In this document: positions 29,893 through 46,379 of the stretch, one piece after another
Layout of the letters: each line of letters opens with the position of its first letter
Position numbering within the stretch: position 1 is the first letter of the stretch
Virus record (IMG/VR): IMGVR_UViG_3300049896_000004
Location: 1 to 55,452 of that record
Length of the DNA stretch: 55,452 nt
Direction: 5' to 3' (one strand)
From: a virus
Taxonomy: Duplodnaviria > Caudoviricetes
Translations under genes and position numbers: made by a program
Notes under the pieces: generated by a model
What the model was told of the DNA's origin: nothing
What the model saw: the letters and a program-made list of their open reading frames with translations, nothing else
The model's database searches: none

Positions 29893-31569
29893 TCACCGGG
29901 CCGGTCCGCGGCCGCCGCCCGCCGTCCCGCCGGTGCCGTTCGGGCTGCCGACGCTGCGCCCGTACCTGCTCGCCGCCTTACTGTTTGGCACGCGGTCGAT
30001 AGGGGCCTGTACGGCGGACGCGGCGAGCTGCTCCGCCCACAGGGACATGACCACCGCGTCCCCGCGGTCGGGGCTGCGGCCGAGGCGGGCGACAACGTCG
30101 TCCTTGTTCTCGACCTTGATCTTCGGCGGGACGCCGGTGGTCACGTCCCATGTCGGGGTCGTGAGGTCGGCGATCAGGAGGTCATCAGGGGGCAGTATGA
30201 GTTCCGCGCCGAAGGCCGGGTCGAGCAGTTCCCGGACGTGCCAGTACGCCGCCCCCCGGGTGTTCGTGAAGCTCCACTCGCCGCTGCGGTCCCTGGCGCC
30301 CGTCTTGGCGGCGCCCGTGTAGGCGAGGACGGGCACGTGCAGCTCGCGCAGCCGGTCGACGACGCCGCCGCCCACGCCCATGCTGTCGACGACCGGCACG
30401 GCCTTCACCGTCTCCTCGTCCTCACCGGCGCCGGTCGCTGCCTGGACCCGGGCGGTGGTCTGCATCGTGTCCTCACGGCTGTGGATCTCCAGCCGGGTCA
30501 CGGCGAGGCCGACCCGGTGCGCGAAGACCGTGTCGTCGGTGCCGGCCCTGGCGACGTCGACGCCGGTGTAGTGCCGGCCGGGCAGCTCGGGCCGCCCGGC
30601 GTCGTTCCACTCGTGCCAGCGCTCGATAGCGGCCTCGACCCAGGCGAGCGGGATGACGCTGTCCTCGTCGCTCGCGTAGAACTCACCAAGTACGCGGTTG
30701 TGGAACATCGCGCTGTCGCGGCCCCACTGGCGCGCGCGCTGCTCTGCCCAGGTCTCGCTGATCCGGCCGGCCGCGACCGCTTCCGCGAGAGTGACGTGCC
30801 GGACGTGCCAGTCCTCCAGGCCGGGCTTGCGGGTGTGGATGTCGTAGAAGCGGCCGACCGGTGGCCCGGGGGTGCTGATCGCGAGAGCGAACGCTTCCGG
30901 GAGTCCCTCGTGCCGGCCACCGGAGAAGGCGCCTTCGATCGCGTCCCAGGTCGCCTCGGGGACGATCTTCGCCTCGTCGATCAGGTAGAACAGGCTGTCG
31001 GCGTGGGCGCCCTCGATCAGCTCTGCCTTGGTCGAGGCGACCGGGGTTGCCGCGCCATGGATGAGCTTGAGGTTCAGCGCCAGCAGCTCACGCAGTTCGC
31101 TGTACGGGGCCCGCCCCATCAGCTCCCACTTGATACGCCGCGACCATTTATGAATCTCCGGCCATAGGTAGACCTGGAGGGCGCGCCAGGCGGACGCGGT
31201 CGTGATGACCTTCCAGTCGATCCCGGCGGCCTCCCGCGTCGACGCGAACCACAGGACGGTGATCGAGGCCATACCGGTCTTGCCGAGGCCGTGAGGGCCC
31301 CGTACAGCCACGCGCTTGTGCACCGGCACCGCGCCGATCGCGTCGTTCTGATAGGCGGTCAGGCCCTCGCCGGGGCCCCAGTCGATGACGTCCCGCGCCC
31401 AGCCGACCGGGTCGTACATGTACTTGACGACCCGTCGCGTGGCCCGTCGGCCCTGCTTCGCCGCGACCCTGTCCCGCAGCCCCCGGAGCGCGCGGACGTC
31501 GCCGGCGAGGACGAGCTGTCGAACCTGCTCCTCGATGGCAGCGCGCTCCAGCTCATCCGCCGGCGTCAT
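29893..31569 (-). CDS. terL: Terminase large subunit
   Basis: Walker A GPHGLGKT, Walker B YLIDEA, nuclease GVDVAR and SPDRGDA. Confidence 0.92.
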   Translation of the reverse strand: MTPADELERAAIEEQVRQLVLAGDVRALRGLRDRVAAKQGRRATRRVVKYMYDPVGWARDVIDWGPGEGLTAYQNDAIGAVPVHKRVAVRGPHGLGKTGMASITVLWFASTREAAGIDWKVITTASAWRALQVYLWPEIHKWSRRIKWELMGRAPYSELRELLALNLKLIHGAATPVASTKAELIEGAHADSLFYLIDEAKIVPEATWDAIEGAFSGGRHEGLPEAFALAISTPGPPVGRFYDIHTRKPGLEDWHVRHVTLAEAVAAGRISETWAEQRARQWGRDSAMFHNRVLGEFYASDEDSVIPLAWVEAAIERWHEWNDAGRPELPGRHYTGVDVARAGTDDTVFAHRVGLAVTRLEIHSREDTMQTTARVQAATGAGEDEETVKAVPVVDSMGVGGGVVDRLRELHVPVLAYTGAAKTGARDRSGEWSFTNTRGAAYWHVRELLDPAFGAELILPPDDLLIADLTTPTWDVTTGVPPKIKVENKDDVVARLGRSPDRGDAVVMSLWAEQLAASAVQAPIDRVPNSKAASRYGRSVGSPNGTGGTAGGGRGPAR

Positions 31570-31978
31570 CTCCTGCCTCCCCCTGGTCGAGCAGCGCAAT
31601 GATCTGGTCGCCCAGGCGCTGGGCGTCGATGTTGACCCGGGTCGGGGCCGCTGTCCCCTGGAGTCGCTCGCGGCCCTGCATGCACTTCAGGACGACGTTC
31701 GCCGCCTTGACGTCCTTGTCCTTGACGGCCTTGGTCCAGAACGTGGCCTGTAGCCGGTCGTAGCGCATGACCTCTACCTGGCGGATGGCGTCGAGGTCGG
31801 CCTTCTCGCGGGCGATGCTCTCGGTGACGGCGCGGTCGATGGCCTTCTTCGCTGCGCTCGCGTCTGCGTAGCCGACCTGTTCGGCGATCGTGCGGAGGTC
31901 GACGCCGGCGAGCTGGAGCTGTAGGGCCTGCTTACGGCGTGCCGCTGCTGAGAGTCGCTGTCGGTCGGAGGCTCCCAT
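31553..31978 (-). CDS. terS: Terminase small subunit
   Basis: N-terminal HTH (ALQLQLAG..LRTIAEQVGY); overlaps terL. Confidence 0.75.
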   Translation of the reverse strand: MGASDRQRLSAAARRKQALQLQLAGVDLRTIAEQVGYADASAAKKAIDRAVTESIAREKADLDAIRQVEVMRYDRLQATFWTKAVKDKDVKAANVVLKCMQGRERLQGTAAPTRVNIDAQRLGDQIIALLDQGEAGDDAGG

Positions 31979-32149
31979 GGGTCTCCTCAGGGGGTCTGGT
32001 GGGACTGCACGTGTCCACGTTTCGGTTTCAACTAGCGGGCGATACGTGTGTGGCCAGGGGTTTTACCGGTGGGGGTGGGGTGAGGGGGCGCGTCTCGTCG
32101 CGGTTGGGCGAGGGACGGACAGGGGTGGACGCACCCCCCGGAGGGTGTC

Positions 32150-32875
32150 CTAGGTGAGCTGACAGGTGTGTGCGGGGGGTCGTTCGTCGGCGAGGAAGAT
32201 GGTCTGTGCGGTCATGCGGTAGCCGGTCATCTGCTCGCGGAACGTCTCGATGGACTCCTCGGGGTGGACGGAGTCGATGACGGCGTGGGGGCCGTGGGCG
32301 TTGAACTGGTGGGAGACGCCGCGGGGGACCTGCATGTCGGCCCAGCTGTTCTCTGGGATGACGAGGTTGTAGCGGTCGCGGTGGTGGCCGTCGGGGACGT
32401 CGGGGTGGGCGTCGGTGAAGGTCTCGGGGATGTAGCTGGTGACGCCGGCGACGTGGGTGATCCGCAGGGGGGTGAGGCTGCTGACTCTGATGTACGTGCC
32501 GGGTCCGGTCATCATGCGGACGAAGCGGAGGCCGGTGTGCAGGTGCATGCGTGAGCAGATGCCGCGGTCGGTGACGTCGTAGAAGTCCATCAGGTAGCGG
32601 TCTGCTTCGAAGCCGCTGTAGGGGGCGGCGAGCATGTAGACGTCGCCCTCTTCGAAGGTCTGGGCGCGGGTGATGCCGTCGCGGTCGGGTGTGGTCGCTC
32701 CGGGGGCGCGGTGGGCTGCCTGTACTAGGCCGCGGAGGGTGTCGGTGATAGTGAGGGCGACGGCGGGTTCGAAGCGTGCGACGGGGGTGACGGTGCACTG
32801 TCCGGGGTCGCGGAAGCCGATGATGTCGTGGACCTCGTTCTCGTCGTCCGGGGTGCGCTTCATCGTGGTCGGCAT
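32150..32875 (-). CDS. Cupin-fold protein (RmlC/epimerase-like)
   Basis: MHLH and VPRGVSHQF cupin motifs. Confidence 0.7.
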   Translation of the reverse strand: MPTTMKRTPDDENEVHDIIGFRDPGQCTVTPVARFEPAVALTITDTLRGLVQAAHRAPGATTPDRDGITRAQTFEEGDVYMLAAPYSGFEADRYLMDFYDVTDRGICSRMHLHTGLRFVRMMTGPGTYIRVSSLTPLRITHVAGVTSYIPETFTDAHPDVPDGHHRDRYNLVIPENSWADMQVPRGVSHQFNAHGPHAVIDSVHPEESIETFREQMTGYRMTAQTIFLADERPPAHTCQLT

Positions 32876-32919
32876 GGGTGGGGCTCCTTACATGACGTGC
32901 AGGGCGGGGGGTGGGGCGG

Positions 32920-33468
32920 TCAGCCGACGGTCCAGCCCTGGTTGAAGGTGTCCGGGGCGAAGCGGGTGAGCATGTTGCCGCGGTCGGCGAGGCGGTCGAC
33001 CTCCTCGGGGTCCATCTCCAGCCGGCGGGCGATCTCCTCCGGGCTGACGCCGAGCTTCAGCAGGTCGGCGACGATGTCGGCCATGCCGAGGACGTGGTGC
33101 GTGCCGCGGGCCCGGTTGTGGCGGACGGTCGCCATACGGGCCGTTGCGGGGTCGGTCGGGGGGAGGACGACGACGGGGACCAGGCCGTCGGTGAGGGCGG
33201 CGACCTGCGGGTCCGAGCCGATCTTCCAGCGGTGGTATCCGTCGACGACCTCGTACGTGCCGTCGTCCTGGTCGCGGACGACGATCGGCTGCGTCCACCC
33301 GTTCTCCAGGATGCTGACCTTCAACAGGCGGAACTCCGGGGGCGCCTGGGTATTGGGATTCCATTGGTTCGCGGTGACGACGTCGCGGGTCAGCCAGCGG
33401 ACGGCGGACACCGGCTGTGCGTCGACGCCGGCCCCTGCTCGCATCGGGGTGGGGAGATCGTCGGTCAC
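32920..33468 (-). CDS. IbrB-like ParB N-terminal domain protein
   Basis: NQWNPN, GWTQPIVV, VDGYHR and TVRHNRARGTH. Confidence 0.85.
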   Translation of the reverse strand: MTDDLPTPMRAGAGVDAQPVSAVRWLTRDVVTANQWNPNTQAPPEFRLLKVSILENGWTQPIVVRDQDDGTYEVVDGYHRWKIGSDPQVAALTDGLVPVVVLPPTDPATARMATVRHNRARGTHHVLGMADIVADLLKLGVSPEEIARRLEMDPEEVDRLADRGNMLTRFAPDTFNQGWTVG

Positions 33469-34859
33469 GGGGTCGGCTCCTTGTGCTCGTCGGGGATCAG
33501 GGCGTACGGGTCCGTGGGGAGGGGGCGGGGGTGATTCAGCTCGCCGCCGGTGCCGGCCGCGATGATCGTGGCCAGCTCGTCGGCGTAGCGGGCCCAGAGC
33601 TGGCCGCGCGGGTTGTGCATGAGGTGCGCGGACTCCTGCCGGCGCTCCTTGAAATCACCGCGCATGGCGAGGGTGAGGAGGAACGTCCAGTTGAGGCCGG
33701 TCACCGGGTTCGGGGTCTGGGGGAGGATCGGGAGGGTGGTCTTCGTGTAGTGGCGGGTGATGACCTGCGCGATACGGGCGGCGACCTTGGCCTGCTTGTC
33801 GCCGTGCTTGAGGATGTAGTGGCGGATGAAGTCGGGCCAGGTCACGCCGGCGGGCTTCGGGGGCTTGCTGCCGTAGCCGTACAGCTCGGTGCGGGCGTAC
33901 CGGTAGGCGGCGCCGATCCCGGGGACCCGCTCTGCCATGCGGGCCCAGACGTCGGGGAAGCACTGGGCGTAGGTGTGGATCTTCTGTAGCGGTTCCTCGC
34001 CGAAGGCCGGGCTGCAGCGCTGCCCGGACGCCCCGACGCCGGCCATCTCCATCAGGTCGTACGCCCGGTTGTAGTCCCAGCCGTGGAGGCGTGCGGCGGC
34101 CCAGACGTCCTCTGTCCGCCAGTCGTAGATCGGGTACGCCTTCCACAGGTTGCCGTGGTCGAGCGCGGCGGCCTGCCGGTCCTTGCTCTTGATCTTGTAC
34201 TTGACGATGTAGTTGTCGATGCTGCGCAGGCGGACGGCGTGCGCCCGGATCAGGGACTCCTGTGCGCGGATGCCCATCAGGGTCACGGTGGTGTGCGGGG
34301 GCGGGGCGAAGAGGCCGTTCGCGTTGGGGATGCTGAGGCGTTCCGCGGCGGGCCAGATCGGGAAGCCGGGCAGGGTCTGCTGGGCCTCGGGGGGCAGCGG
34401 CCGGCACCACTTCGCCTCGTCCTCAGGGGCCCATGGCCACCAGTAGGGGGAGCGGCGGGAGCAGGCGTTGCGGTGCTGTACGGGGAGGCACATCCATTCA
34501 AGGGCGACGTCGTCGCGCTCGCCGACCCGGCGGACGTATTCCTCCGTCTCGTACGGGATCGCCTCCTCGTCGAAGAAGACGACCCGCAGCGGCAGGTGCC
34601 GGTGAAGGTGCTTCTCCCGGGCTAGGACGTCGAGGGTGACGTTCAGGACGGCCGTGCTGTCCTTGCCCCCGGAGAACGCGACGAAGGCCCGGTCGTGGTT
34701 GTCGAGGACGTACGCGGTCCGCTCGCAGGCGAGGGCGTACACGTCCTGTCCGGCGGCGACGCGGGGCCGATTCTGCTTCGGGATGTACTCGGTCTGCCAG
34801 ACGTCGACGTAGGCGCCTTCCGGCAGCCAGCCGTCGGGCAGGGGCGGGGGCAGGGTCAT
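33465..34859 (-). CDS. PAPS-reductase-family PP-loop protein (IbrA/DUF3440-like), paralog 1
   Basis: FSGGKDS, FFDEE, GIRAQES..R and YPIYDW..EDVW. Confidence 0.88.
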   Translation of the reverse strand: MTLPPPLPDGWLPEGAYVDVWQTEYIPKQNRPRVAAGQDVYALACERTAYVLDNHDRAFVAFSGGKDSTAVLNVTLDVLAREKHLHRHLPLRVVFFDEEAIPYETEEYVRRVGERDDVALEWMCLPVQHRNACSRRSPYWWPWAPEDEAKWCRPLPPEAQQTLPGFPIWPAAERLSIPNANGLFAPPPHTTVTLMGIRAQESLIRAHAVRLRSIDNYIVKYKIKSKDRQAAALDHGNLWKAYPIYDWRTEDVWAAARLHGWDYNRAYDLMEMAGVGASGQRCSPAFGEEPLQKIHTYAQCFPDVWARMAERVPGIGAAYRYARTELYGYGSKPPKPAGVTWPDFIRHYILKHGDKQAKVAARIAQVITRHYTKTTLPILPQTPNPVTGLNWTFLLTLAMRGDFKERRQESAHLMHNPRGQLWARYADELATIIAAGTGGELNHPRPLPTDPYALIPDEHKEPTP

Positions 34860-36253
34860 CGCCGGTCCAGGTGCTTGAAGTCGTCGGGCAGGAGTGTGTA
34901 CGGGTCGGCGGGAAGCGGCCGGGGGTGGCCCAGCTCGCCGGCGGTCACCTCGTCGGCGAGCAGCTCGACGAACTCAGCGACGTAGCGGCGCCAGTACGAG
35001 GCGGCGTCGCCGTCCATGAGCTGCTTGACCTCCTGGCGGCGGTTCTTGAAGTCGCCCCGCATGGCCAGGACGAGGAGGTACTTCCAGTTCAGGCCGGTGA
35101 TCGGGTGCGGTGTCCGCGGGAGGACCGGGTGAGTGGTCATGCGGTAGTGGCGGGTGAGGGCCTCGTGGATACGGCGGGCGATGACGGTCCGCTCCTTCGG
35201 GCCGTGCTTGGTGAGGTAGTGGCGGACGAAGTCCGGCCATGGGGTCCCCGGGGGCTTGGCCGGCTTCTGCGCTCCGAAGCCGTACAGCTCGGTGGAGGCG
35301 TAGCGGGCGGCGGCGCCGACCCCGGGGACGCGCTCGGACATGCGGGCCCAGACGTCGGGGAAGCACTGGGCGTACACGTGGATCTTCTGTAGCGGCTCCT
35401 CGCCGAAGGCGGGGCTGCAGCGCTGCATGGCCGGGGTGACGCCGGCCATGGCCATGAGGTCGTACGCCTGGTTGTAGTCCCAGCCGTGGACGCGCGCGGC
35501 CGCCCAGACGTCCTCTGTCCGCCAGTCGTAGACCGGGTATGCCTTCCAGACGTTGCCGTGGTCGACGGCGGCGGCCTGACGGTCCCGGCCGAACGAGTAC
35601 CTCACGATGTAGTTGTCCACGGCCCGCCGCCGGACGGCGAGGGCCCTGATCCGGGACTCCTGCGCGCGGATGCCCATGAGGGTCGCCGCGGTGTGCGGGG
35701 GCGGGGCGAGGAGGCCGTTGACGTTGGGGATGGTCAGCCGCTCCTGTGCGGGCCAGAGGGGAAAGCCGGGCAGGGTCTGCCGGGCCTCGGGGGGCAGTGG
35801 CCGGCACCACTTCGCCTCATCCTCCGGGGCCCACGGCCACCAGTAGGGGTGATGACGCGAGCAGGCGTTGCGGTGCTGTACGGGCAGGCACAGCCACTCC
35901 CCGGCGACGTCGGGCCGGGAGAAGACGCGCCGGACGTACGCCTCGGTCTCGGCGGGGATCGCCTCCTCGTCGAAGAAGACGACGCGCAGCGGCAGGTGCC
36001 GGTGAAAGCGCGGCTCGCGGTTGGCGACGTCGAGCGCGATGTTCAGGACGGCGGTGCTGTCCTTGCCACCGGAGAAGGCGACGAACACCCGGTCGTGGGT
36101 GTCCATGACGTACGCCGTCCGCTCACAGGCGAGGGTGTACACGTCCGCCGCGGCGGCGAGGCGGGGCCTGCTGAACTTGGCCACGTAGCCGCGGACGTGC
36201 TCCTTGTCCATGGACGTGCCCTCTGGCAGCCATCCGTCCCGCCCGTCGCTCAC
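34856..36253 (-). CDS. PAPS-reductase-family PP-loop protein (IbrA/DUF3440-like), paralog 2
   Basis: Same motifs as paralog 1; start VSDGRDGW via GTGA overlap. Confidence 0.88.
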   Translation of the reverse strand: MSDGRDGWLPEGTSMDKEHVRGYVAKFSRPRLAAAADVYTLACERTAYVMDTHDRVFVAFSGGKDSTAVLNIALDVANREPRFHRHLPLRVVFFDEEAIPAETEAYVRRVFSRPDVAGEWLCLPVQHRNACSRHHPYWWPWAPEDEAKWCRPLPPEARQTLPGFPLWPAQERLTIPNVNGLLAPPPHTAATLMGIRAQESRIRALAVRRRAVDNYIVRYSFGRDRQAAAVDHGNVWKAYPVYDWRTEDVWAAARVHGWDYNQAYDLMAMAGVTPAMQRCSPAFGEEPLQKIHVYAQCFPDVWARMSERVPGVGAAARYASTELYGFGAQKPAKPPGTPWPDFVRHYLTKHGPKERTVIARRIHEALTRHYRMTTHPVLPRTPHPITGLNWKYLLVLAMRGDFKNRRQEVKQLMDGDAASYWRRYVAEFVELLADEVTAGELGHPRPLPADPYTLLPDDFKHLDRR

Positions 36254-37059
36254 ACGGCACCCCCGTGCCGGCTCAGCCAGTCGGCGGCCGCGGGCAGATG
36301 CTCCGCGGCGTCGACGATCCGGGCCGGCTCGATCGCGTACGTCTCCGCGAAGGAGCTGTCGCGGTCGCCGACCCGGCGGCCGGGCCATGACCCGGTGCCG
36401 GTCTTCCAGCCGTTCGGCCAGCCGTAGACGGGTGGGAGCGGGCGCCGGTTGTAGTGGATGACGGCCAGGACTAGTTCGTGCGACCAGTGCCGGATCGGGG
36501 AGTACGTGGTCAGGAGGCGGCTGCTCTGGATGCCGTAGGGGGTCGCTGGGATGCTGTTGCCGTCCATCGTGCGGCGGCCGTAGATCTGCATCCGGGGGTG
36601 GTGCTCTGCCTGGTAGAGGTGCTGGGCGCGGCGGGTGCCGAGCATGGTCCAGCGGTAGCCGTCGGTGCTGTTCGTCGGGAAGAGATAGCGGTCGTTGCGG
36701 GGCTCAGCGAGCCAGGCCGGGGTGATCGCCTGGTTCTGGATGTGGGTGAGGCCGTCGGGCTGGTGCTCCTCGCACCACAGGAGGTAGGCGGTGAACTCCA
36801 GGTGCGGGATCGTGCCGAGGAGGGAGCGGCGGACGCCGGCGCGTTCCATGACGACCTGGAGCGCGATGCTGTCCTTCCCGCCGGACCAGCCGTATACGGC
36901 GTCGTCGGGGCGGCCGTCGAGGACTGTGCGGGTCTCGGCGGCCGCCTCGTTGACAGCGCGGTCCGCCTCGTCCTCGCTGACGTACTCGGTGATGTGGTCG
37001 TGGACGTGCTGGACGTCGTCGTTGCTGTACGCCGTCTTGGACTTCAGGACCTGGCGCAT
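36250..37059 (-). CDS. Short PAPS-reductase-family PP-loop protein
   Basis: WSGGKDS, GRRTMDGN and SPIRHWSHE; start MRQVLKSK. Confidence 0.8.
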   Translation of the reverse strand: MRQVLKSKTAYSNDDVQHVHDHITEYVSEDEADRAVNEAAAETRTVLDGRPDDAVYGWSGGKDSIALQVVMERAGVRRSLLGTIPHLEFTAYLLWCEEHQPDGLTHIQNQAITPAWLAEPRNDRYLFPTNSTDGYRWTMLGTRRAQHLYQAEHHPRMQIYGRRTMDGNSIPATPYGIQSSRLLTTYSPIRHWSHELVLAVIHYNRRPLPPVYGWPNGWKTGTGSWPGRRVGDRDSSFAETYAIEPARIVDAAEHLPAAADWLSRHGGAV

Positions 37060-38168
37060 CAGCCCTCGCTCAGCCAGTCGTCGAGGTGGCGGCGGGCCTC
37101 GGTGTCGGAGTCGCGGGCGACGACGCGCGGCGGGGCCTTGAACAGCCAGGCGGATGCCCACTGGTCGACGTCCGGGGTGCCGCGGTCGAGGGCGGTCTTC
37201 GCGATGCGTACGGCGTCGATGACGATGCCGGCGCTGTTCGGTGAGTCCGGGACGGTGAGCTGCATCTCGATCTCGATCGGGGCGCCGGCGAAGCCGCGGC
37301 CCTCGCAGCGGATGAAGGCCTTCTTCGTGTCGCCGAGGAACTGCACGTAGTCAGACGGGCCGATGTGGACGCTGTCCGGGTTGAGGATCCCGTCGTACGC
37401 GTCGGTGACGGCGCCGCTCTTCGACTCGCGCTTCGTGGCGAGGCGGTCGGCCTCGAGCATGTTGTAGAAGTCCATGTTGCCGCCGACGTTGAGCTGGTAC
37501 GTGCGGTCAAGGCGGATGCCGCGGTCGGAGAAGGCGCGGGCGAGGACGCGGTGGACGTAGGTGGCGCCGAGCTGGCTCTTGATGTCGTCGCCGATCAGGG
37601 GCAGGCGGGCCGCGCGGAAGCGGGCGCGCCACTCCTCGTTGCGGGCGATGAAGACCGGGATGTTGTTGACGAAGGCGCATCCGGTGTCGAGGGCGACGTC
37701 TGCCCACCATTCCGTGGCCGACTGCGAGCCGACGGGCAGGTAGTTCACGAGGACCTGCACGCCGGCCTCGCGGATCTCCCGGTGGATCCGCTCGGTCTCT
37801 GCGGCCCAGCTCCATCCGGTCTGGTCGGCGAGGGTGATGCGCTCGCGGTACTTGCTGCCGGCGCCGTCGAGGGCCGGGCCGCGGGACACGGTGACGTCCT
37901 GTGCGTACGGCTTGAGCTCATCCTGTGGGATACCGACGTCGAGGTTCTGGCCGGCCTTGCGGGCGTCCCAGAGGTTCCGGCCGACCTTGTCGGCGTCGAT
38001 GTCCCAGGCGGCGACGGGCTCGACGTCCGCGGCGAGGTATCCGCCGATGCTCGGGTGGCACAGGCCCATGGTGTCCTCGGGGCGGGCCTTGTAGTAGGCG
38101 ACGCCTTCGATGAGGGCGCGGGCGCAGTTGCCGACGCCGATGATTCCGATACGTACGGTCTCGGTCAC
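37059..38168 (-). CDS. ino1: Myo-inositol-1(3)-phosphate synthase
   Basis: IGVGNCA, NYLPVGS, GDDIKSQLGAT, QLNVGGNMDF, HIGPSDYV, DSPNSAG and FKAPP. Confidence 0.95.
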   Translation of the reverse strand: MTETVRIGIIGVGNCARALIEGVAYYKARPEDTMGLCHPSIGGYLAADVEPVAAWDIDADKVGRNLWDARKAGQNLDVGIPQDELKPYAQDVTVSRGPALDGAGSKYRERITLADQTGWSWAAETERIHREIREAGVQVLVNYLPVGSQSATEWWADVALDTGCAFVNNIPVFIARNEEWRARFRAARLPLIGDDIKSQLGATYVHRVLARAFSDRGIRLDRTYQLNVGGNMDFYNMLEADRLATKRESKSGAVTDAYDGILNPDSVHIGPSDYVQFLGDTKKAFIRCEGRGFAGAPIEIEMQLTVPDSPNSAGIVIDAVRIAKTALDRGTPDVDQWASAWLFKAPPRVVARDSDTEARRHLDDWLSEG

Positions 38169-39262
38169 AGTCGCTCCATGATCAACTCGATGGTGTGGCA
38201 GACCAGCGACGTCTCGTAGCTGGTCCAGGTCCAGGGCGGACAGGTCTCTGTGCCCAGGCAGAAGGTCTCGGCGGCCAGGCGCTGGGCGTGGATGGGCCGG
38301 AAGCTGCTCGACCCGCTGTCGGCCGCGAACATCGGGTGCGCGGGGAGCGGGTGCTGTCCCCAGTCGTGGGTGGGGATCCCTGCGTTCGCGAGGGCGAGGC
38401 GGAGGGGGCCGGCGGGTCGGTCGCGCAGGCCGGTGCGGAGCTTGTGGAAGGCCGGGGCGGCGCCGTCGGGGATCTGCTGGTGCCAGAGGCCGCAGTCGGC
38501 GAGGGTCTGGTGCACGCGGCCGGTGGTCTCCCTCGCCTGTTCGGCGAGGCGGGGGAAGGTGTGGAGCTGCTCGGCCACGAGGGCCATGGACAGTTCCGAG
38601 GGCCGCCAGTTGTGGCCGGGGAGCGTGACGAGGGCGTTCGCCCGTGCAGCGTCCCTCTGGGCCCCGTAGTCCCGTAGCTGGCGTAGTTCGTCGGCGAGTG
38701 CCTCGTCATCGGTGGTGACCGCTCCCCCGTCGGGGGCGCTGATCAGCTTGGTCGCCGAGAAGGACCAGCAGTGTGTACCGCGGGCGCCGACGTGCTCGCC
38801 GTCGACGAGGGTGCCGAGAGACTGGCACGCGTCTGTGATGACGTCCTCGCGGGGCAGGTTGTGCGGGACGCCGTGCAGGTCGGGGGTGAGGACGAGGTGT
38901 CCGGATGTGGGGAGCCCGCTGATGCTGTTGCCGGTGTCCGGCTCGACGTCGTGATAGTCCAGCGCGGCACCGATGTGCGAGGCGCCGGTGAGGGTGCCGG
39001 CGAAGCCGAAGGCGGGGGTGTGCAGCGGGGTCCCCCGGCGGACGCCGTGCGCGAGGAGCGCGGCGTGGATCGCGGCGGTACAGGACTGGAATGCCACGGT
39101 GAAGCGGGCGCCGGTCAGCTCGGACATGCCGGTCTCGACGGCTTGCGTGTACCGGCCGCCGGTCCAGACGCGGGAGGCGATGGCGCCACTCACGGCGTGG
39201 TGCGAGCCTGGGCCGGGGTCGGCCGGCCAGCGGTGTGCGGTAAGGCGGTCGAGGCCACTCAC
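38165..39262 (-). CDS. DegT/DnrJ/EryC1/StrS PLP aminotransferase
   Basis: SCTAAIH, DACQSLG, SFSATK..DGG (PLP lysine) and HNWRPSE. Confidence 0.88.
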   Translation of the reverse strand: MSGLDRLTAHRWPADPGPGSHHAVSGAIASRVWTGGRYTQAVETGMSELTGARFTVAFQSCTAAIHAALLAHGVRRGTPLHTPAFGFAGTLTGASHIGAALDYHDVEPDTGNSISGLPTSGHLVLTPDLHGVPHNLPREDVITDACQSLGTLVDGEHVGARGTHCWSFSATKLISAPDGGAVTTDDEALADELRQLRDYGAQRDAARANALVTLPGHNWRPSELSMALVAEQLHTFPRLAEQARETTGRVHQTLADCGLWHQQIPDGAAPAFHKLRTGLRDRPAGPLRLALANAGIPTHDWGQHPLPAHPMFAADSGSSSFRPIHAQRLAAETFCLGTETCPPWTWTSYETSLVCHTIELIMERL

Positions 39263-40191
39263 GCGTCCACGCTCACGGGCAGGTAGGCGGCGCAGATCGC
39301 GGTCAGGGCTTCCGCCGCGGTGTCGTATCCGCCGGCGGCCTGCGCCTGCTTGATCGCGGCGCGCACGGTGTCCCGCTGCGGCACGGTGAACACCCATTGC
39401 AGAGGGACGGTCGTGACTGGCGGTGGAAGCTCGATGCCGACACCGGCGGACGAGCGGGCACCCGGGCCGCTGTACGCCTCGGGGCCGGTGTGGACGCCGG
39501 GCGACATGGGCGGCGGTGCCGGTCGGTCCTCTCCCGCAGCCGCGGGTTCCTCGAGGTCGGCGGACGCCGCGGTGGGCGATGCGACCTGTTGCCCGGGGAC
39601 GGGCGGCGCGGTGTCCGAGAACGGATGCAGGGCGGGCGCCGTGGGCGCCGGGGCCGGGCCGGTCAGGTCAGAGAGGAACGCCGTCGTCGACTCGGCGAGC
39701 GCGCCGGTGACCTTCAGCAGCTCGTCGTAGTCCTCGCCGCTGTACGCGGTGCCGTCGAGGTCGTCGTCCAGGCCGGCGAGCAGCTCGGCGAGGGCCTCGG
39801 TGTCCCAGGTCCCCAGCTCGGCCGTCTTGTTGTCGGCCAGGTTGGCCCGTCTGGCCGTGTCGTCGTCGCACGAGACGACCTCAGCGCGCAGGAACGGGAT
39901 GTATCCGGCCCTGTTGCTACACACGCCGCAGGGCAGCTTGCGGCGGCGGCGGGTGAACGTGGTGCCGCAGTCGCCGGGGCCGTGCTCGCGCATCGCGGCG
40001 AGGGTGTTGTTGCCGGCGAGGACGATCAGGCTGCCGTCGGGTAGCTCCCGGGCGACGACGGCGCGGTACTGCGCGTTGCGGCGCAGGCTGTCGAGGATCG
40101 CCCGGGTGTCGCCCTTCTTCGCGTTGCCGGGGTACGGGGTGAGGTCGTCGATCGGGACGTCCGCTGTGCGCAGATAGGTCGCCTGTGTCAT
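39259..40191 (-). CDS. ParB N-terminal domain protein with Zn-ribbon insert
   Basis: LTPYPGNAK, VLAGNNT, H..DC..CGVC and LADNKTAE..WD. Confidence 0.8.
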   Translation of the reverse strand: MTQATYLRTADVPIDDLTPYPGNAKKGDTRAILDSLRRNAQYRAVVARELPDGSLIVLAGNNTLAAMREHGPGDCGTTFTRRRRKLPCGVCSNRAGYIPFLRAEVVSCDDDTARRANLADNKTAELGTWDTEALAELLAGLDDDLDGTAYSGEDYDELLKVTGALAESTTAFLSDLTGPAPAPTAPALHPFSDTAPPVPGQQVASPTAASADLEEPAAAGEDRPAPPPMSPGVHTGPEAYSGPGARSSAGVGIELPPPVTTVPLQWVFTVPQRDTVRAAIKQAQAAGGYDTAAEALTAICAAYLPVSVDA

Positions 40192-40267
40192 GGCTTCGCT
40201 CCTGGTCGGGGCTTGGGCAGCCAGGCAGGATAAGCCCATACCGGGGCATTGCGGCCGTATGGGTGAG

Positions 40268-40465
40268 CTAGCTGAGGGGACAGACCTCGTCGGAGCCGCA
40301 GACCGGACGGGGATCGTTCGCCGTGGCGGCCGCGATGCTCCTCGCGACCTCGCCGGCCAGGTCCCGCTCGTCGGGGCCGAAGGGGACGCCGAGGAACGCG
40401 AGCGAGGGCGAGGCGATCCAGCCGCGACGGTGGAGGAGCAGGCTCAGCCACATGGGACGGATCAC
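40268..40465 (-). CDS. Small hypothetical protein
   Basis: GTGA overlap with the GP88 stop; GGAGG upstream. Confidence 0.4.
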   Translation of the reverse strand: MIRPMWLSLLLHRRGWIASPSLAFLGVPFGPDERDLAGEVARSIAAATANDPRPVCGSDEVCPLS

Positions 40466-41241
40466 GTAGAGGCCGCCTTCCGGGCTGCTCGCCTCGTGGC
40501 GCGGCGGGCGTCCTCGTCGGCCTGCCACTGCCGGAAGGTCCGGCCGGCCATGCGCTTGCGGAACTGCGGGATGTTGTTCGAGGGGATCCCGACGGGGGTC
40601 GGGCCGAGGACTGCGAGGAGGTCGCTGGCGTCCTGGCTGTGCCAGCCCGCGGCGATGATGTCGGCCTCGCTCAGGTAGACGTCCGCGACACGGTCACGGG
40701 TCTCGTCGAGGAGGCCGTCCTCGGTGCCGCCGTAGCTGTAGATCCAGTGGAAGTTTCGGGGCGGCGCCGGTTCGACAGCGGCTTTGAAGAGGGCGACTTC
40801 CTTGGTGTAGCAGTAGAAGTTCACCCAGGGCCGGAAGGCCATGATGCGCAGCCAGGCGGCGAGGTAGCGGGGGCTGTAGAAGTCGCCGGCGTCATGGATG
40901 CGGACCCAGCCGCCGCGGTGGCGTTCATTGGCGAGTTCAGAGGCCATGTGCCGGGTCCAGCCGGGGAGGTCGTCCTCGACGTACATCAGGTTGGCCTGAT
41001 GCCGCTCGACGACGGAGGGGAAGTTGTACGTCCCATTTCGGGCGTAACAGGCGAGGGCGCAGACGCCGGCAGCAGGACACGTCTTGATCGTCCGGCCGTC
41101 GGGGAGGCGGCTCGCGAGGGCCGGTAGCGTCCAGTTCCATACGCCGTCGCTGCGCATCTCGGAGTTCTGGCCGAGGAGTCTCTCGGGGCGGCGCGGACGG
41201 CGCGGACGGGCCTGCGGGGCGGCGATGTCGACGGCGCTCAC
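40462..41241 (-). CDS. GP88-family protein (radical-SAM-like Cys cluster)
   Basis: TCPAAGVCALACYA, RIHDAGDFYS and YCYTK. Confidence 0.8.
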   Translation of the reverse strand: MSAVDIAAPQARPRRPRRPERLLGQNSEMRSDGVWNWTLPALASRLPDGRTIKTCPAAGVCALACYARNGTYNFPSVVERHQANLMYVEDDLPGWTRHMASELANERHRGGWVRIHDAGDFYSPRYLAAWLRIMAFRPWVNFYCYTKEVALFKAAVEPAPPRNFHWIYSYGGTEDGLLDETRDRVADVYLSEADIIAAGWHSQDASDLLAVLGPTPVGIPSNNIPQFRKRMAGRTFRQWQADEDARRATRRAARKAAST

Positions 41242-42059
41242 ACTGCACGCCCTGCTGCGGCGTCCATGAGGACGGCGAGGGGTACGCGCTCGTCCGGTCG
41301 GCCGCGGTACTCCAGGGCGGCGGCGAAGGCTCTCAGGGCGGACAGGACGACAGTCGACGGGTCGGCGCCGGGGAAGGCGCGCTCTGTCACCGCTGCAATC
41401 AGGCGGGCCGCCTCGTCGCGGGCGGCCGGGGCGTACGTGAGGGTGATGTGCCCGTTCCCGTCCTCGCCGCTTCCGTCACCCTCGCCGCCACCCTCGCCGC
41501 CGCTCAGGCCGCTGCCCGTCGGGGCTGCCGGTGGGGGGCTGTCGTCCTCGGGTTCGGCGTCGTCCTGGGCGGCCTCATCGATCGCGGCGAGCAGGTCTTC
41601 GAGGTCGGTGTCGCCGTAGCCGGTGCCGGTGTAATCGTCGCCGAGGTTGCCGAGGAGGGCCGCGAGCGCTTCCTGGTCGTAGGAGCCGTCATCCGAGGAT
41701 TTGTTGTCCACCAGGTTCAGCCGGCGGGCCGTGTCGTCGTCGCAGGTGACAATCTCGCAGCGGACGACCGGCGCCCACTCGCTGTTCCCGCACAGGGCGC
41801 ACGGTTCCTCTTCGCCGCCGCGCTTGATCGTCAGGCCGCAGTCGCCGGGGCCGTGGGCAGCGATGGCCTGGGTGGTGTGGTTGCCGGCGAGGATGGTGAG
41901 CTGGCCGTCGTGCTCACGGACGATGACGCTGCGGTACTGACCGTTGGCGCACAGGCTTTCCAGGATGACGGGCACGTTGCCGCGCTTGGCGTTGCCGGGG
42001 AACGGCGTGAGGTCGGCGAGCGGCACGGTGTCGGTGCGCAGGTAGGTGGCCTCGGGCAT
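41238..42059 (-). CDS. ParB N-terminal domain protein with Zn-ribbon insert (paralog of 39259-40191)
   Basis: LTPFPGNAK, ILAGNHT, HGPGDC..CALC and NLVDNK. Confidence 0.8.
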   Translation of the reverse strand: MPEATYLRTDTVPLADLTPFPGNAKRGNVPVILESLCANGQYRSVIVREHDGQLTILAGNHTTQAIAAHGPGDCGLTIKRGGEEEPCALCGNSEWAPVVRCEIVTCDDDTARRLNLVDNKSSDDGSYDQEALAALLGNLGDDYTGTGYGDTDLEDLLAAIDEAAQDDAEPEDDSPPPAAPTGSGLSGGEGGGEGDGSGEDGNGHITLTYAPAARDEAARLIAAVTERAFPGADPSTVVLSALRAFAAALEYRGRPDERVPLAVLMDAAAGRAV

Positions 42060-42169
42060 GGGTGGCTGCTCCTGTGACGGACGAATACGACGGAGCAGGA
42101 TAGACGGGACACGACTCGGCCCCCGCGCGGCTGGTGGACCGTGCGAGGGCCGGGCGGTCGCGGAGGGTC

Positions 42170-46372: not shown

Positions 46373-46379
46373 GGCGGCG

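What the first reader, a model, noticed from the sequence alone, without database searches (positions are those of the whole stretch)
32150..40191. Terminase-adjacent ParB / aminotransferase / inositol-phosphate synthase / triple PP-loop / IbrB / cupin operon: candidate amino-inositol DNA modification system
Seen: seven genes joined by six stop/start overlaps (39259/62, 38165/68, 37059, 36250/53, 34856/59, 33465/68), then a cupin, behind a TATCCT box at 40227-32 and directly upstream of terS/terL. Established: Ino1 makes inositol phosphate from glucose-6-phosphate through an inosose-phosphate intermediate; DegT/StrS-family enzymes aminate keto-sugars and inososes in aminocyclitol pathways; SGGKDS PP-loop proteins such as DndC are the ATP-using activators in DNA backbone modification; phage ParB-domain genes next to terminases often travel with DNA-modifying enzymes. 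Inference: the phage makes an (amino)cyclitol and PP-loop enzymes activate DNA (backbone phosphate or base) to attach it, guided by ParB proteins and possibly coupled to packaging. I know of no described pathway with this combination. No dehydrogenase or cysteine desulfurase is visible, so the keto substrate must come from Ino1, the cupin or the host. An alternative is a small-molecule aminocyclitol, or a donor for virion decoration.
Basis: partly seen in the sequence, partly recalled or inferred. Interest (0 to 1): 0.93.

Follow-up and report, generated by a model that had tools for sequence, protein, structure and literature searches.

The report
Inositol-synthase/aminotransferase operon with PP-loop–ParB enzymes
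A soil actinomycete phage carries a tightly coupled operon that joins an inositol-phosphate synthase and a sugar aminotransferase to a widespread but uncharacterised set of ATP-using and ParB-like phage enzymes beside the DNA-packaging genes, which may attach a small molecule to phage DNA, although nothing here shows the target.

Summary
On the minus strand, seven genes are joined by six start/stop overlaps: ParB1, DegT aminotransferase, Ino1-like MIPS, PP1, two IbrA-like PP-loop paralogs and IbrB. A 3-His cupin-like gene, a terS-position gene and terL follow.

The whole operon recurs in 4 other viral contigs, including prophages of Streptomyces sp. NRRL B-1347 and Actinomadura sp. K4S16.

New here: the core is PP1 + ParB + IbrA + IbrB. 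It occurs in 27 of 28 viral loci with a PP1 relative (GC 37-72%), usually just upstream of terS/terL. Ino1+DegT occurs in only 4 of those 28. Elsewhere the neighbouring genes include an SSF symporter, an ABC importer, Cupin_2 or Ldh_2. Two relatives add GT25 glycosyltransferases, and one GT25-PP1 fusion exists.

IbrA and PP1 lack invariant cysteines and fail DndC cut-offs. Their folds resemble FAD synthase, CysD and CysH. A complex model supports IbrA-IbrB binding (0.72 against 0.00).

No methyltransferase, TET/JBP, TGT or thymidylate synthase is in the window.

DNA as the target remains inference. My best reading (0.35) is ATP-dependent attachment of an Ino1/DegT-derived amine to phage DNA. 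I found no published description. Cultured lysogens make it testable.

The parts
41238..42059 (-). ParB2, a ParB-like paralog. It is 54% identical to ParB1 over 159 aa. It may belong to a separate ParB2-GP88 unit.
   Evidence: phrog_723 4.2e-48; paralogy; GTGA overlap with GP88; TATCCT 38 nt upstream at 42097-42102.
40462..41241 (-). GP88-family protein of unknown function, lying between the two ParB paralogs.
   Evidence: PF17338 1.2e-51; conserved in L004 and L005 at 74-77% identity; homolog in Streptomyces phage Gilgamesh gp56 at 53%; no PDB sequence relative.
40227..40232 (-). TATCCT, a -10-like hexamer 36 nt upstream of the ParB1 start. Candidate operon promoter element.
   Evidence: the conserved extended motif in L004; not picked up by the sigma-70 consensus scan.
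39259..40191 (-). ParB1, a ParB-like protein and the first gene of the coupled operon. It is the counterpart of the ParB (phrog_620/723) gene found in the core module of other phages.
   Evidence: phrog_723 3.9e-39, phrog_620 1.8e-22, and phrog_498 (the ParB-type N-terminus of phage DNA methyltransferases) 5.4e-19; ParB cluster c1 is present in 22 of 28 loci, and 10 of 10 low-GC members tested hit phrog_620.
38165..39262 (-). DegT/DnrJ/EryC1/StrS-family PLP aminotransferase.
   Evidence: PF01041 5.4e-44. The best solved relative is ArnB 1mdo at 2.3e-23, and the Lys of the query's SATK aligns with the Lys of ArnB's HAIK. Glutamine--scyllo-inositol transaminase 7b0d matches at 1.3e-14. All NCBIfam equivalogs score far below their cut-offs.
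37059..38168 (-). Divergent myo-inositol-phosphate-synthase (MIPS/Ino1) paralog.
   Evidence: PF01658 8.7e-32; 1gr0 3e-98 and Ari2 6k96 1.3e-49; TIGR03450 374 bits, below the 638-bit cut-off. Both lysogen genomes also hold a canonical ino1 scoring 737 and 695 bits.
36250..37059 (-). PP1, a small stand-alone PP-loop (SGGKDS) protein of the PAPS-reductase superfamily. It forms a distinct family.
   Evidence: phrog_424 3.5e-11; invariant YGWSGGKD, GRRxxDGN and HE, with no conserved Cys, in 26 sequences; AF2 pLDDT 95.4; Foldseek top matches are TtuA, CysH and Fad1 at TM 0.4-0.6, depending on normalisation; 301 representative clusters at E<=1e-30 among 1.84 billion.
34856..36253 (-). PP2, an IbrA-like PAPS-reductase domain + DUF3440.
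   Evidence: PF01507 4.3e-9 and PF11922 7.2e-8; phrog_2302 1.3e-74; 72% identical to PP3.
33465..34859 (-). PP3, the second IbrA-like paralog.
   Evidence: PF01507 6.1e-10 and PF11922 1.2e-6; phrog_2302 3.5e-74; AF2 pLDDT 80.1. The best fold match is the PAPS domain of human FAD synthase, 8rom, with target-normalised TM 0.72, followed by APS/PAPS reductases and CysD 1zun.
32920..33468 (-). IbrB-like ParB/Srx-fold protein, the predicted partner of IbrA.
   Evidence: PF02195 8.4e-9; phrog_2159 1.7e-57; invariant DGxHRW and NRARGxH in 21 sequences. Complex model with PP3: 0.72 against a best control of 0.00.
32150..32875 (-). Cupin-like protein (3-His motif) of unknown function. It is probably an independent cargo gene rather than part of the coupled operon.
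   Evidence: phrog_28683 2.4e-113; no Pfam or PDB match; invariant H111, H113, H189 and PxGxxHxxN; 471 homologs, the 120 listed being 64-89% identical, across Actinomycetota and Deinococcus; lies after the portal gene in phage PJN03.
31553..31978 (-). Small gene in the terS position, overlapping the terL ORF as listed.
   Evidence: Assigned by position; phrog_645 5.4e-25, labelled 'RNase E'; conserved before terL in L004 and L005.
29893..31599 (-). Terminase large subunit.
   Evidence: phrog_2 8.2e-38.

Best explanation
The operon is an IbrA/IbrB-type phage module consisting of PP1, a ParB-like protein, IbrA (here duplicated) and IbrB. A two-enzyme small-molecule branch has been inserted into it.

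Shown:
- The genes are translationally coupled.
- The four-part core is conserved in very different phages, usually just before the packaging genes.
- The genes next to the core vary between phages: a symporter, an ABC importer, Cupin_2, Ldh_2, or here Ino1+DegT, with GT25 and a nucleotidyltransferase-like gene added in relatives.
- IbrA and PP1 are cysteine-poor members of the PAPS-reductase fold. Their nearest solved structures make or use AMP-phosphate or AMP-sulfate anhydrides.
- A complex model supports an IbrA-IbrB pair.

Inferred:
- The Ino1 paralog makes a cyclitol phosphate from a hexose phosphate.
- With the help of a host phosphatase and dehydrogenase, DegT turns it, or a host keto-sugar, into an amine.
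- A PP-loop enzyme adenylylates a phosphate or carbonyl group.
- The amine or cyclitol is then joined to phage DNA after replication and before or during packaging.
- The ParB-like proteins load or activate the enzymes on DNA, as the ParB partner of phage thymine dioxygenases does.
For: - Coupling: six overlaps were read in the sequence.
- Conservation of the full set: 4 of 4 contigs found with Ino1 carry it, with Ino1 the best-conserved gene at 67-81% identity. Two of these are prophages of named cultured actinomycetes.
- Core: IbrA and IbrB lie beside PP1 in 27 of 28 loci, across GC 37-72%. The ParB cluster is in 22 of 28 loci, and 10 of 10 members tested hit phrog_620.
- Packaging genes: terS/terL of three different PHROG terminase families follow IbrB in 4 of 6 distant loci tested.
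- Variable partner genes: SSF symporter cluster in 16 of 28 loci, with 3 of 4 members tested matching PF00474; an SsuA-like binding protein plus ABC permease; Cupin_2; Ldh_2 at 1.1e-83; GT25; one GT25-PP1 fusion, P0121.
- ParB1, ParB2 and the c1 proteins match the ParB-type N-terminus of phage DNA methyltransferases, phrog_498.
- Published precedent: a phage ParB activates a DNA thymine dioxygenase on double-stranded DNA (PMC13229309; abstract and section 12 read).
- IbrA-IbrB complex model: 0.72 against a best control of 0.00. That mark was reached by 58 of 80 solved complexes and 2 of 110 mismatched pairs. The runs share at least 87% of their contacts, and the partner pLDDT is at least 76.
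- No other DNA-modification enzyme competes for the ParB proteins in the window: no Tet_JBP, N6/N4 or C5 methyltransferase, TGT or thymidylate synthase.
Against: - No result here shows DNA, or any nucleic acid, as the acceptor.
- ParB/Srx-fold proteins also include small-molecule kinases and sulfiredoxin (recalled). PAPS-reductase-fold enzymes include purely metabolic ones, namely FAD synthase, CysD and CysH.
- Transporter genes next to PP1 fit a small-molecule pathway as well as they fit a DNA adduct.
- The window encodes no transferase for the cyclitol, and the operon holds no dehydrogenase or phosphatase to provide a keto substrate for DegT.
- Ino1+DegT are absent from 24 of 28 PP1 loci, so they may be cargo.
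- The position before terminase genes is common for many phage accessory genes.
- The record is about 75% complete, so other partners may lie outside it.
Confidence: 0.35

Rival explanations
1. The pathway ends in a small molecule. PP1 and IbrA act like FMN adenylyltransferase or CysD and adenylylate a phosphate (for example the cyclitol phosphate) or another imported or synthesised metabolite. The product is a nucleotide-linked or amidated metabolite used for host takeover or counter-defence, not a DNA adduct. ParB/Srx-fold partners act as NTP-using enzymes or regulators.
For: - The best fold matches are the PAPS domain of FAD synthase (8rom, target-normalised TM 0.72), APS/PAPS reductases and CysD.
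- Importer genes recur next to PP1: the SSF cluster in 16 of 28 loci, and an ABC binding protein plus permease in L033.
- Ldh_2 and Cupin_2 enzymes lie in the same neighbourhood.
- The hosts already possess a canonical ino1, so the phage paralog may feed a new metabolite.
Against: - Two to four ParB-like genes per module, of the kind fused to phage DNA methyltransferases, are hard to explain for a purely metabolic route.
- The module keeps its place beside packaging genes across unrelated terminase families.
Confidence: 0.25
2. Ino1 and DegT are auxiliary cargo unrelated to the PP-loop/ParB core. They boost or divert host inositol-phosphate and amino-sugar metabolism (phosphatidylinositol, mycothiol, cell-wall sugars) during infection or lysogeny and merely sit inside the IbrAB-type operon.
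For: - They are present in only 4 of 28 PP1 loci.
- Ino1 homologs occur in unrelated large phages of Stenotrophomonas, Caulobacter and Ralstonia without PP1 or IbrA nearby.
- Inositol phosphate is a central metabolite of actinomycetes (recalled).
Against: - There are 4-nt overlaps on both sides, ParB1/DegT and Ino1/PP1.
- The pair sits at the same place, between ParB and PP1, in all 5 phages.
- In two relatives, GT25 genes lie between Ino1 and PP1, and a GT25-PP1 fusion exists.
- The phage Ino1 scores well below the equivalog cut-off, while both hosts keep a canonical copy.
Confidence: 0.12
3. The operon makes a glycoconjugate for the virion or the host envelope. The Ino1/DegT product is activated and transferred to capsid or tail proteins or to cell-wall polymers, as in glycosylated mycobacteriophage virions (recalled, not checked).
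For: - Relatives L006 and L007 add two GT25-like genes. L007 also adds a gene that I read as nucleotidyltransferase-like from its motif only; it has no Pfam or NCBIfam hit.
- The operon lies next to the structural gene block.
Against: - The window itself has no glycosyltransferase or nucleotidyltransferase homolog.
- The conserved partners are ParB-like and PP-loop proteins, which have no known role in protein or cell-wall glycosylation.
Confidence: 0.1
4. The IbrA/IbrB/PP1 enzymes act on RNA (tRNA), or act as regulators of late gene expression. In E. coli, ibrAB was reported to activate prophage eib genes (title seen only in a reference list).
For: - The top PP1 fold matches include the tRNA thiolases TtuA and NcsA.
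- The only published phenotype for IbrAB that I could find a trace of is activation of gene expression (reference list only).
Against: - PP1 and IbrA lack the cysteines and Fe-S ligands of tRNA thiolases.
- No tRNA gene is in the window.
- A regulator role does not explain Ino1, DegT, GT25 or the importers.
Confidence: 0.1

Closest known systems
IbrA/IbrB gene pair (PAPS-reductase+DUF3440 with a ParB-like partner), first named in E. coli ECOR-9 and annotated in many phages
   Same: PP2 and PP3 carry PF01507+PF11922, and IbrB carries ParB_N. They match phrog_2302 and phrog_2159. IbrA-like genes occur in 218 phage records, often near the genome start or the terminase genes.
   Different: Here the pair is extended by PP1, an extra ParB, a duplicated IbrA, and Ino1+DegT. 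The biochemical function of IbrAB is, as far as my searches show, unknown. Phage papers treat the gene as a sulfur-metabolism AMG (passages of PMC10434257). That does not fit a family with no invariant cysteine.
DndBCDE / Ssp DNA phosphorothioation (DndC PP-loop ATP pyrophosphatase with ParB-like DndB)
   Same: A PP-loop enzyme of the PAPS-reductase superfamily is paired with a ParB/Srx-fold protein that has a DGxHR-type motif. Weak DndC hits were found.
   Different: Scores are 24-25.5 bits against a 290-bit cut-off. There is no conserved cysteine pair or cluster. No DndA, DndD or DndE family was matched among the ten proteins scanned. The element is a phage module, not a host restriction-modification island.
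ParB-dependent thymine dioxygenases (5mYOX) of phages (PMC13229309)
   Same: [quoted passage not shown] The genes co-occur with terminases and glycosyltransferases (abstract and section 12).
   Different: No Tet_JBP domain is in the window. The partner enzymes here are PP-loop ATP pyrophosphatases. The paper does not mention PAPS, aminotransferase or inositol in its main text. Its supplements could not be seen.
Aminocyclitol biosynthesis (MIPS, then inosose, then a DegT-family Gln:inosose aminotransferase such as StsC or BtrR)
   Same: MIPS and a DegT-family aminotransferase are adjacent and coupled. Solved inosose aminotransferases are among the DegT matches: 7b0d at 1.3e-14 and 5w70 at 6.1e-9.
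   Different: No inositol-phosphate phosphatase or inositol dehydrogenase is in the operon. The best DegT relatives are the UDP-keto-sugar enzymes ArnB and PseC. There is no glycosyltransferase in the window. The context is a phage, not an antibiotic gene cluster.
FMN adenylyltransferase (FAD synthase PAPS domain), ATP sulfurylase CysD, and APS/PAPS reductase CysH
   Same: These are the nearest solved folds of PP3 and PP1. The PP-loop and the GxRxxES..R-type motif are conserved.
   Different: Sequence identity is 11-18% across the matches listed. There are extra DUF3440 helical domains and an obligate-looking ParB partner. The catalytic cysteine of CysH is not conserved (the CysH motif itself is recalled).

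Membership tests
IbrA/IbrB-type module | PAPS_reduct (PF01507) followed by DUF3440 (PF11922) in one protein | tested here: met
   PP2 and PP3 both pass the Pfam cut-offs for both domains.
IbrA/IbrB-type module | Adjacent ParB/Srx-fold partner gene | tested here: met
   IbrB matches PF02195 at 35.8 bits against a 26.3-bit cut-off, and phrog_2159 at 1.7e-57. IbrB lies beside IbrA in 26 of the 28 PP1 loci; L022 has IbrA only and L030 neither. The complex model gives 0.72 against 0.00.
DndC (DNA phosphorothioation) | Score above the TIGR03183 equivalog cut-off (290.4 bits) | tested here: not met
   24.0 bits (PP2) and 25.5 bits (PP3); PP1 gives no hit.
DndC (DNA phosphorothioation) | Conserved cysteines for sulfur transfer or an Fe-S cluster | tested here: not met
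   In 29 IbrA-family sequences only one Cys column reaches 86%, and none is invariant. PP1 has no conserved Cys.
DndABCDE system | Cysteine desulfurase (DndA/IscS), DndD ATPase and DndE in the cluster | tested here: not met
   No such family was matched among the ten proteins from 32150 to 42059. The rest of the window was not scanned for these families.
Myo-inositol-phosphate synthase (Ino1) | MIPS catalytic domain and close similarity to a solved MIPS | tested here: met
   PF01658 at 109.9 bits against a cut-off of 27. 1gr0 matches at 3e-98 over residues 4-362, with the blocks GDDIKSQ, LNVGGNMDF and DSPNSAG identical in the printed alignment.
Myo-inositol-phosphate synthase (Ino1) | Equivalog score for actinobacterial Ino1 (TIGR03450, 638 bits) | tested here: not met
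   374 bits. The lysogens' own ino1 genes score 737 and 695 bits, and the prophage copies 355 and 385 bits.
DegT/DnrJ/EryC1/StrS aminotransferase | Family domain plus the PLP-binding lysine | tested here: met
   PF01041 at 151 bits. The Lys of the query's SATK aligns with the Lys of ArnB's HAIK in the 1mdo alignment. That this Lys is the Schiff-base residue is recalled, not tested.
Aminocyclitol pathway | Phosphatase and inositol dehydrogenase that supply the inosose | tested here: not met
   Absent from the operon's proteins. Host enzymes could supply them; this was not tested.
Cupin superfamily | Match to a cupin model or a cupin fold | tested here: inconclusive
   There is no Pfam, NCBIfam or PDB sequence match. 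The invariant HxH and PxGxxHxxN motifs fit cupin motifs 1 and 2 (the motif definitions are recalled). Atlas leads show Cupin_1/2 on 25% of one cluster.
7-deazaguanine (Dpd/DpdA) DNA modification | TGT-family DpdA transglycosylase | tested here: not met
   No PF01702 match in the window.
ParB-dependent 5mYOX system | TET/JBP dioxygenase next to ParB | tested here: not met
   No PF12851 match in the window.

The most novel reading that the evidence does not exclude
The PP1-ParB-IbrA-IbrB module is a widespread, so far unrecognised phage machine for ATP-dependent covalent attachment of small molecules to DNA. In these actinomycete phages it would attach an Ino1/DegT-derived aminocyclitol. Candidate linkages are a phosphoramidate on a backbone or terminal phosphate, or an amidine-type adduct on a base. 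In relatives, GT25 enzymes would glycosylate the adduct further. This would be the first cyclitol modification of DNA and the first biochemical function for the IbrAB family.
Probability: 0.2. Interest if true: 0.95.

Novelty: new variant of a known kind. Interest (0 to 1): 0.72.

Why it matters
IbrA/IbrB-like 'PAPS reductase' and ParB genes beside terminases are annotated in hundreds of phages: 218 records for IbrA alone. They are usually written off as sulfur-metabolism AMGs or partition proteins. This operon shows them as part of a larger conserved module (PP1-ParB-IbrA-IbrB) that recruits different substrate-supply genes in different lineages. That pattern is what one expects of a conjugation or modification machine.

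If the target is DNA, this would be a new chemistry of phage genome modification, with consequences for restriction evasion, sequencing artefacts and enzyme tools. If the target is a metabolite, it would be a new phage-encoded pathway built on an inositol-phosphate synthase.

Two cultured lysogens carry the operon: Streptomyces sp. NRRL B-1347 and Actinomadura sp. K4S16. The question can therefore be tested directly.

Tried and rejected
- Near-identical DNA in cultured phages: none for 32150-40191.
- PP1 in cultured phages: only one unannotated fecal-metagenome record.
- Ino1 context in other phages. In Stenotrophomonas phage Moby the homolog lies between FolE and QueC, a TGT-like gene and QueE. 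In Caulobacter phage Cr30 and Ralstonia phage RP13 it lies among hypothetical genes. The window has no TGT. I therefore dropped the 7-deazaguanine link as an explanation and keep it only as a note.
- DndC-type sulfur chemistry: rejected on scores and the lack of cysteines.
- Sequence searches of the PDB gave nothing useful for PP1 (0 hits), PP3 (only the PP-loop of LarE, E 0.024), GP88 and the cupin.
- Fused forms. The IbrA profile found no long relatives, which the tool itself calls weak evidence. The PP1 profile found one, the GT25-PP1 fusion.
- A 'sulfonate theme' crossed my mind: an SsuA-like binding protein, an Ldh_2 family that includes sulfolactate dehydrogenases, a 3-His cupin, the PAPS-reductase fold, and sulfiredoxin-like ParB. 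I could not test it, and I do not rely on it.
- Sequencing runs: 21 holders are listed, all kept as contigs, and no RNA holder is listed. Contigs cannot show modification or expression. In one search the depth peak at 37164-37871 is the conserved part of ino1 from other organisms.
- Promoter scan: no sigma-70-type site in 31400-42400.
- Literature. Searches found no description of this gene combination or of a biochemical function for IbrAB. Two papers I wanted were not held: Pyle et al. 2024 in Cell Reports, and Sandt et al. 2002. Dataset S10 of PMC13229309, which lists domains co-occurring with phage 5mYOX, might list PAPS-reductase neighbours, and I could not see it.
- The clustering of neighbouring ORFs used only plus-strand ORFs of at least 70 aa and a greedy longest-first choice. 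This picks spurious ORFs in the high-GC loci, so cluster counts there are rough. Loci L011-L014, L018/L019, L020/L022, L026/L027 and L033/L034 gave nearly the same hit tables. The 28 loci therefore stand for about 21 lineages.

Full report
WHAT THE WINDOW IS

The window is a 55,452-bp IMG/VR virus record. It is linear, estimated at about 75% complete and about 70% G+C. Almost all genes lie on the minus strand. Going down in coordinates, the operon under study is followed by a terS-position gene, terL (phrog_2, 8.2e-38), a portal/MuF-like 1200-aa ORF and the major head protein (phrog_777). Close relatives of the operon lie in the genomes of Streptomyces sp. NRRL B-1347 and Actinomadura sp. K4S16. 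The phage is therefore a temperate phage, or a relative of temperate phages, of soil actinomycetes. The same sequence, in identical contig pieces, is present in a second soil metagenome from another study.

THE OBSERVATION

- ParB1, 39259-40191: phrog_723, 3.9e-39.
- DegT aminotransferase, 38165-39262: PF01041, 5.4e-44.
- Ino1-like synthase, 37059-38168: PF01658, 8.7e-32.
- PP1, 36250-37059: no Pfam hit; phrog_424, 3.5e-11; SGGKDS motif.
- PP2, 34856-36253, and PP3, 33465-34859: PF01507 + DUF3440/PF11922; phrog_2302, about 1e-74.
- IbrB-like ParB_N protein, 32920-33468: PF02195; phrog_2159, 1.7e-57.

All six junctions are overlaps of start and stop codons: four GTGA, one ATGA and one TGATG. 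PP2 and PP3 are 72% identical tandem paralogs. PP1 is not detectably similar to them by BLASTP. ParB1 and the upstream ParB2 (41238-42059) are 54% identical over 159 residues. A GP88-family gene (PF17338) lies between the two ParB genes and overlaps ParB2 by GTGA.

The TATCCT hexamer at 40227-40232 occurs only twice in the window, so its number is not above chance (expected 3.85). Both copies, however, sit in intergenic DNA 36 and 38 nt upstream of the two ParB paralog starts. In relative L004 the extended motif CTTATCCTTCTGCGCC precedes both ParB paralogs, and a further TATCCT lies between the cupin gene and terS. I take this as a real, conserved promoter-like element, although the sigma-70 consensus scan found nothing.

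- The 'cupin' (32150-32875) has no model or PDB match. The name rests on invariant HxH and PxGxxHxxN motifs and on weak Atlas leads.
- 'terS' is positional.

THE INDIVIDUAL ENZYMES

Ino1. The protein is a close relative of solved M. tuberculosis Ino1 (1gr0, 3e-98) and a more distant one of the five-membered cyclitol-phosphate synthase Ari2 (6k96, 1.3e-49). It scores 374 bits against the actinobacterial Ino1 equivalog model, whose cut-off is 638. In both lysogen genomes a canonical ino1 (737 and 695 bits) coexists with the prophage copy (355 and 385 bits). The phage gene is therefore a separate, divergent paralog and not a recent copy of the host gene.

DegT. It keeps the lysine that aligns with the PLP lysine of ArnB. 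It is nearest to UDP-keto-sugar aminotransferases (ArnB, PseC) but far below every equivalog cut-off. Inosose aminotransferases (7b0d, 5w70) are among the weaker matches. Its substrate cannot be named.

IbrA and PP1.
- The IbrA-like proteins give only 24-25.5 bits against DndC, whose cut-off is 290 bits.
- An alignment of 29 family members has no invariant cysteine. It does have an invariant PP-loop, a DEE motif, a GxRxxES..R motif and a PxYDW motif.
- PP1 likewise has no conserved cysteine.
- The AF2 model of PP1 (pLDDT 95.4) matches TtuA, CysH and Fad1 only at TM 0.4-0.6, depending on normalisation.
- The AF2 model of PP3 (pLDDT 80.1) matches best the PAPS-reductase-like domain of human FAD synthase (8rom, target-normalised TM 0.72, rmsd 3.2 Å), then APS/PAPS reductases and CysD.

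These proteins therefore belong to the branch of the PP-loop superfamily whose characterised members form or use AMP-phosphate or AMP-sulfate anhydrides. They lack the residues needed for sulfur transfer or for PAPS reduction. PP1 defines a small, compact family: 301 representative clusters at E<=1e-30 among 1.84 billion, nearly all 255-290 aa.

CONSERVATION AND ARCHITECTURE

A scan of IMG/VR with Ino1 found 4 contigs, and all 4 carry DegT-Ino1-PP1-IbrA-IbrB in this order. Identities to the window are Ino1 67-81%, DegT 39-69%, PP1 51-79% and IbrB 51-78%. The four relatives differ as follows.
- L004 has two IbrA copies.
- L005 has one IbrA copy.
- L006 has two GT25-like ORFs between Ino1 and PP1.
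- L007 has a nucleotidyltransferase-like ORF and two GT25 genes there (PF01755 above cut-off), plus a sodium:solute symporter upstream of DegT. The nucleotidyltransferase reading rests on my reading of its motif only; the ORF has no family hit.

A scan with a PP1 profile found 28 loci. IbrA-like genes lie beside PP1 in 27 of them, and IbrB in 26, with GC from 37% to 72%. Ino1+DegT are in only 4. After merging near-identical loci, the 28 stand for about 21 lineages.

In the low-GC loci the usual order is symporter - PP1 - ParB - IbrA - IbrB - terS - terL.
- The symporter cluster is in 16 of 28 loci. Three of 4 members tested match PF00474; the short L015 form does not.
- The ParB cluster is in 22 of 28 loci. 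Ten of 10 members tested match phrog_620, and also phrog_498, the ParB-type N-terminus of phage DNA methyltransferases.
- terS/terL follow IbrB in 4 of 6 distant loci tested, with terminases of three different PHROG families: phrog_38, phrog_2/3717 and phrog_15.

Other genes found in the neighbourhood are:
- an SsuA-like binding protein with an ABC permease (L033, L035);
- Cupin_2 proteins next to PP1 (L021, L025);
- an Ldh_2-family dehydrogenase between PP1 and ParB (L032, 1.1e-83);
- an HNH protein (L023).

One protein in the large collection, P0121, is a GT25-PP1 fusion. It is a single sequence, so a gene-calling artefact cannot be excluded.

The picture is a conserved four-part core with variable neighbouring genes. 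Those genes either import or make a small molecule. In the actinomycete clade they are Ino1+DegT, lying between ParB and PP1.

THE CUPIN

It is absent from L006 and L007. In phage vB_RanS_PJN03 its 58%-identical homolog lies after the portal gene, while ParB-ParB-PAPS reductase lie before the terminase. Its family is unusually conserved: the 120 listed hits are 64-89% identical across Streptomyces, Nocardia, Rhodococcus, Mycobacterium and Deinococcus, and two are N-terminal acyl-carrier-protein fusions. I treat it as a separate cargo gene.

WHAT IT MOST LIKELY DOES

Shown:
- one coupled transcription and translation unit;
- a conserved PP1-ParB-IbrA-IbrB core next to the packaging genes;
- variable substrate-supply partners;
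- adenylyl-transfer-type folds without sulfur-chemistry residues;
- a complex model that supports IbrA-IbrB binding.

The complex score is 0.72 against a best control of 0.00. That mark was reached by 58 of 80 solved complexes and 2 of 110 mismatched pairs. The runs agree in at least 87% of their contacts, and the partner pLDDT is at least 76. In the model the C-terminal tail of IbrB (155-182) sits on IbrA residues 31-43 and 246-258, next to the invariant PxYDW motif.

Inferred: the small-molecule branch produces a cyclitol phosphate and, with host enzymes, an amine. A PP-loop enzyme adenylylates a phosphate or carbonyl. The activated group is joined to the small molecule on a nucleic-acid target. 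ParB-like proteins bring the enzymes to DNA.

The DNA reading rests on four points:
- the number and kind of ParB proteins;
- the published precedent of a phage ParB that activates a DNA dioxygenase on double-stranded DNA (PMC13229309; abstract and section 12 read);
- the persistent position beside packaging genes;
- the absence from the window of any other DNA-modifying enzyme that the ParB proteins could serve. The window also has no family A polymerase or thymidylate-synthase-like enzyme that would point to pre-replicative chemistry.

I give this 0.35. The main rival is a purely small-molecule product (0.25). It is favoured by the fold matches and the transporter genes, and it is not excluded by anything computed here. 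The remaining rivals are:
- Ino1/DegT as unrelated cargo (0.12), which the overlaps and the fixed position argue against;
- a virion or envelope glycoconjugate (0.10);
- RNA modification or a regulatory role (0.10).

COMPARISON WITH WHAT IS KNOWN

The module is a member of the IbrA/IbrB kind by domain content and partner gene. It fails the defining tests for Dnd (scores, cysteines, companion genes), for Dpd (no TGT) and for ParB-5mYOX (no TET/JBP). It works, at most, 'like' Dnd in pairing a PP-loop enzyme with a ParB-fold protein.

The Ino1+DegT pair resembles the start of aminocyclitol pathways but lacks the phosphatase and the dehydrogenase.

I found no paper that describes this combination, or a biochemical function of IbrAB. 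Phage papers call the gene a PAPS-reductase AMG (passages of PMC10434257). The Sandt et al. 2002 paper on ibrAB was seen only as a title in a reference list and is not held.

VERDICT

- The interpretation as a DNA-modification system is plausible but unproven.
- The claim that the PP-loop proteins are DndC-like is not supported.
- The new finding is the wider PP1-ParB-IbrA-IbrB module with exchangeable supply genes.

I rate it a new variant of a known but uncharacterised kind, with interest 0.72. Cultured lysogens make the decisive experiments straightforward.

Noticed in passing
window 40227-40232 and 42097-42102 (minus strand); L004 4200, 5911, 14168: TATCCT occurs only twice in 55 kb. Both copies are 36-38 nt upstream of the two ParB paralog starts and are followed by a CAGGAGC ribosome-binding site. 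L004 has CTTATCCTTCTGCGCC before both ParB paralogs and a TATCCT between the cupin gene and terS. L005 has the variants TATCAT and TACCCT. This is probably a phage-specific promoter motif.
   Followed up: partly
window 32150-32875; L001 12013-12729: The cupin-like family is extremely conserved. The 120 listed hits are 64-89% identical across Actinomycetota and Deinococcus, out of 471 hits in total. It has an invariant 3-His motif and two N-terminal acyl-carrier-protein fusions (P0037, P0042). One UniRef label reads 'Phytanoyl-CoA dioxygenase'. In phage PJN03 the gene sits after the portal gene.
   Followed up: partly
window 40462-41241: A GP88-family protein (PF17338) with a Cys-rich stretch lies between the two ParB paralogs and overlaps ParB2 by GTGA. 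It may be a second ParB-enzyme pair. The homolog gp56 of Streptomyces phage Gilgamesh is 53% identical. The function is unknown.
   Followed up: partly
L011 6478-8196, L024 7495-8988, L010 3172-4722; L033 7015-8724: Phage contigs encode solute importers directly upstream of PP1. These are sodium:solute symporters (PF00474) or, in L033, an ABC permease plus an SsuA-like binding protein. Importer genes are unusual in phages.
   Followed up: partly
L002 (Stenotrophomonas phage Moby) 7198-12612: The phage Ino1 homolog, 40% identical, lies between GTP cyclohydrolase I and the QueC-like, TGT-like and QueE-like genes of a 7-deazaguanine cluster. In Cr30 and RP13 the homolog lies among hypothetical genes.
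   Followed up: partly
P0121 (506 aa, from the protein collection): A fusion of a GT25-like glycosyltransferase with PP1, whose PP-loop reads SAGKDS. It is a single sequence on one contig.
   Followed up: no
L032 9699-10703: An Ldh_2-family dehydrogenase (PF02615, 1.1e-83) lies between PP1 and the ParB gene of another high-GC phage contig.
   Followed up: no
window 39259-40191 and 41238-42059: Both ParB paralogs carry a Cys-containing insert (GPGDCG...PC..C) inside the ParB domain. ParB1 has a long Pro/Ala-rich linker before a short C-terminal segment. This is read from the translations only.
   Followed up: no
window 21585-25187 and 26115-28769: The first is a 1200-aa ORF that combines portal-like (phrog_859) and MuF-like (PF04233) matches with an AbiEi_4-like stretch. 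The second is an 884-aa minus-strand ORF between it and terL, which I did not analyse.
   Followed up: no
window 46300-48815 and 43631-44563: The large ORF ends in a DUF6884 domain (4.9e-20). A DUF3560 protein (3.9e-12) lies upstream of the ParB genes. Both are of unknown function.
   Followed up: no
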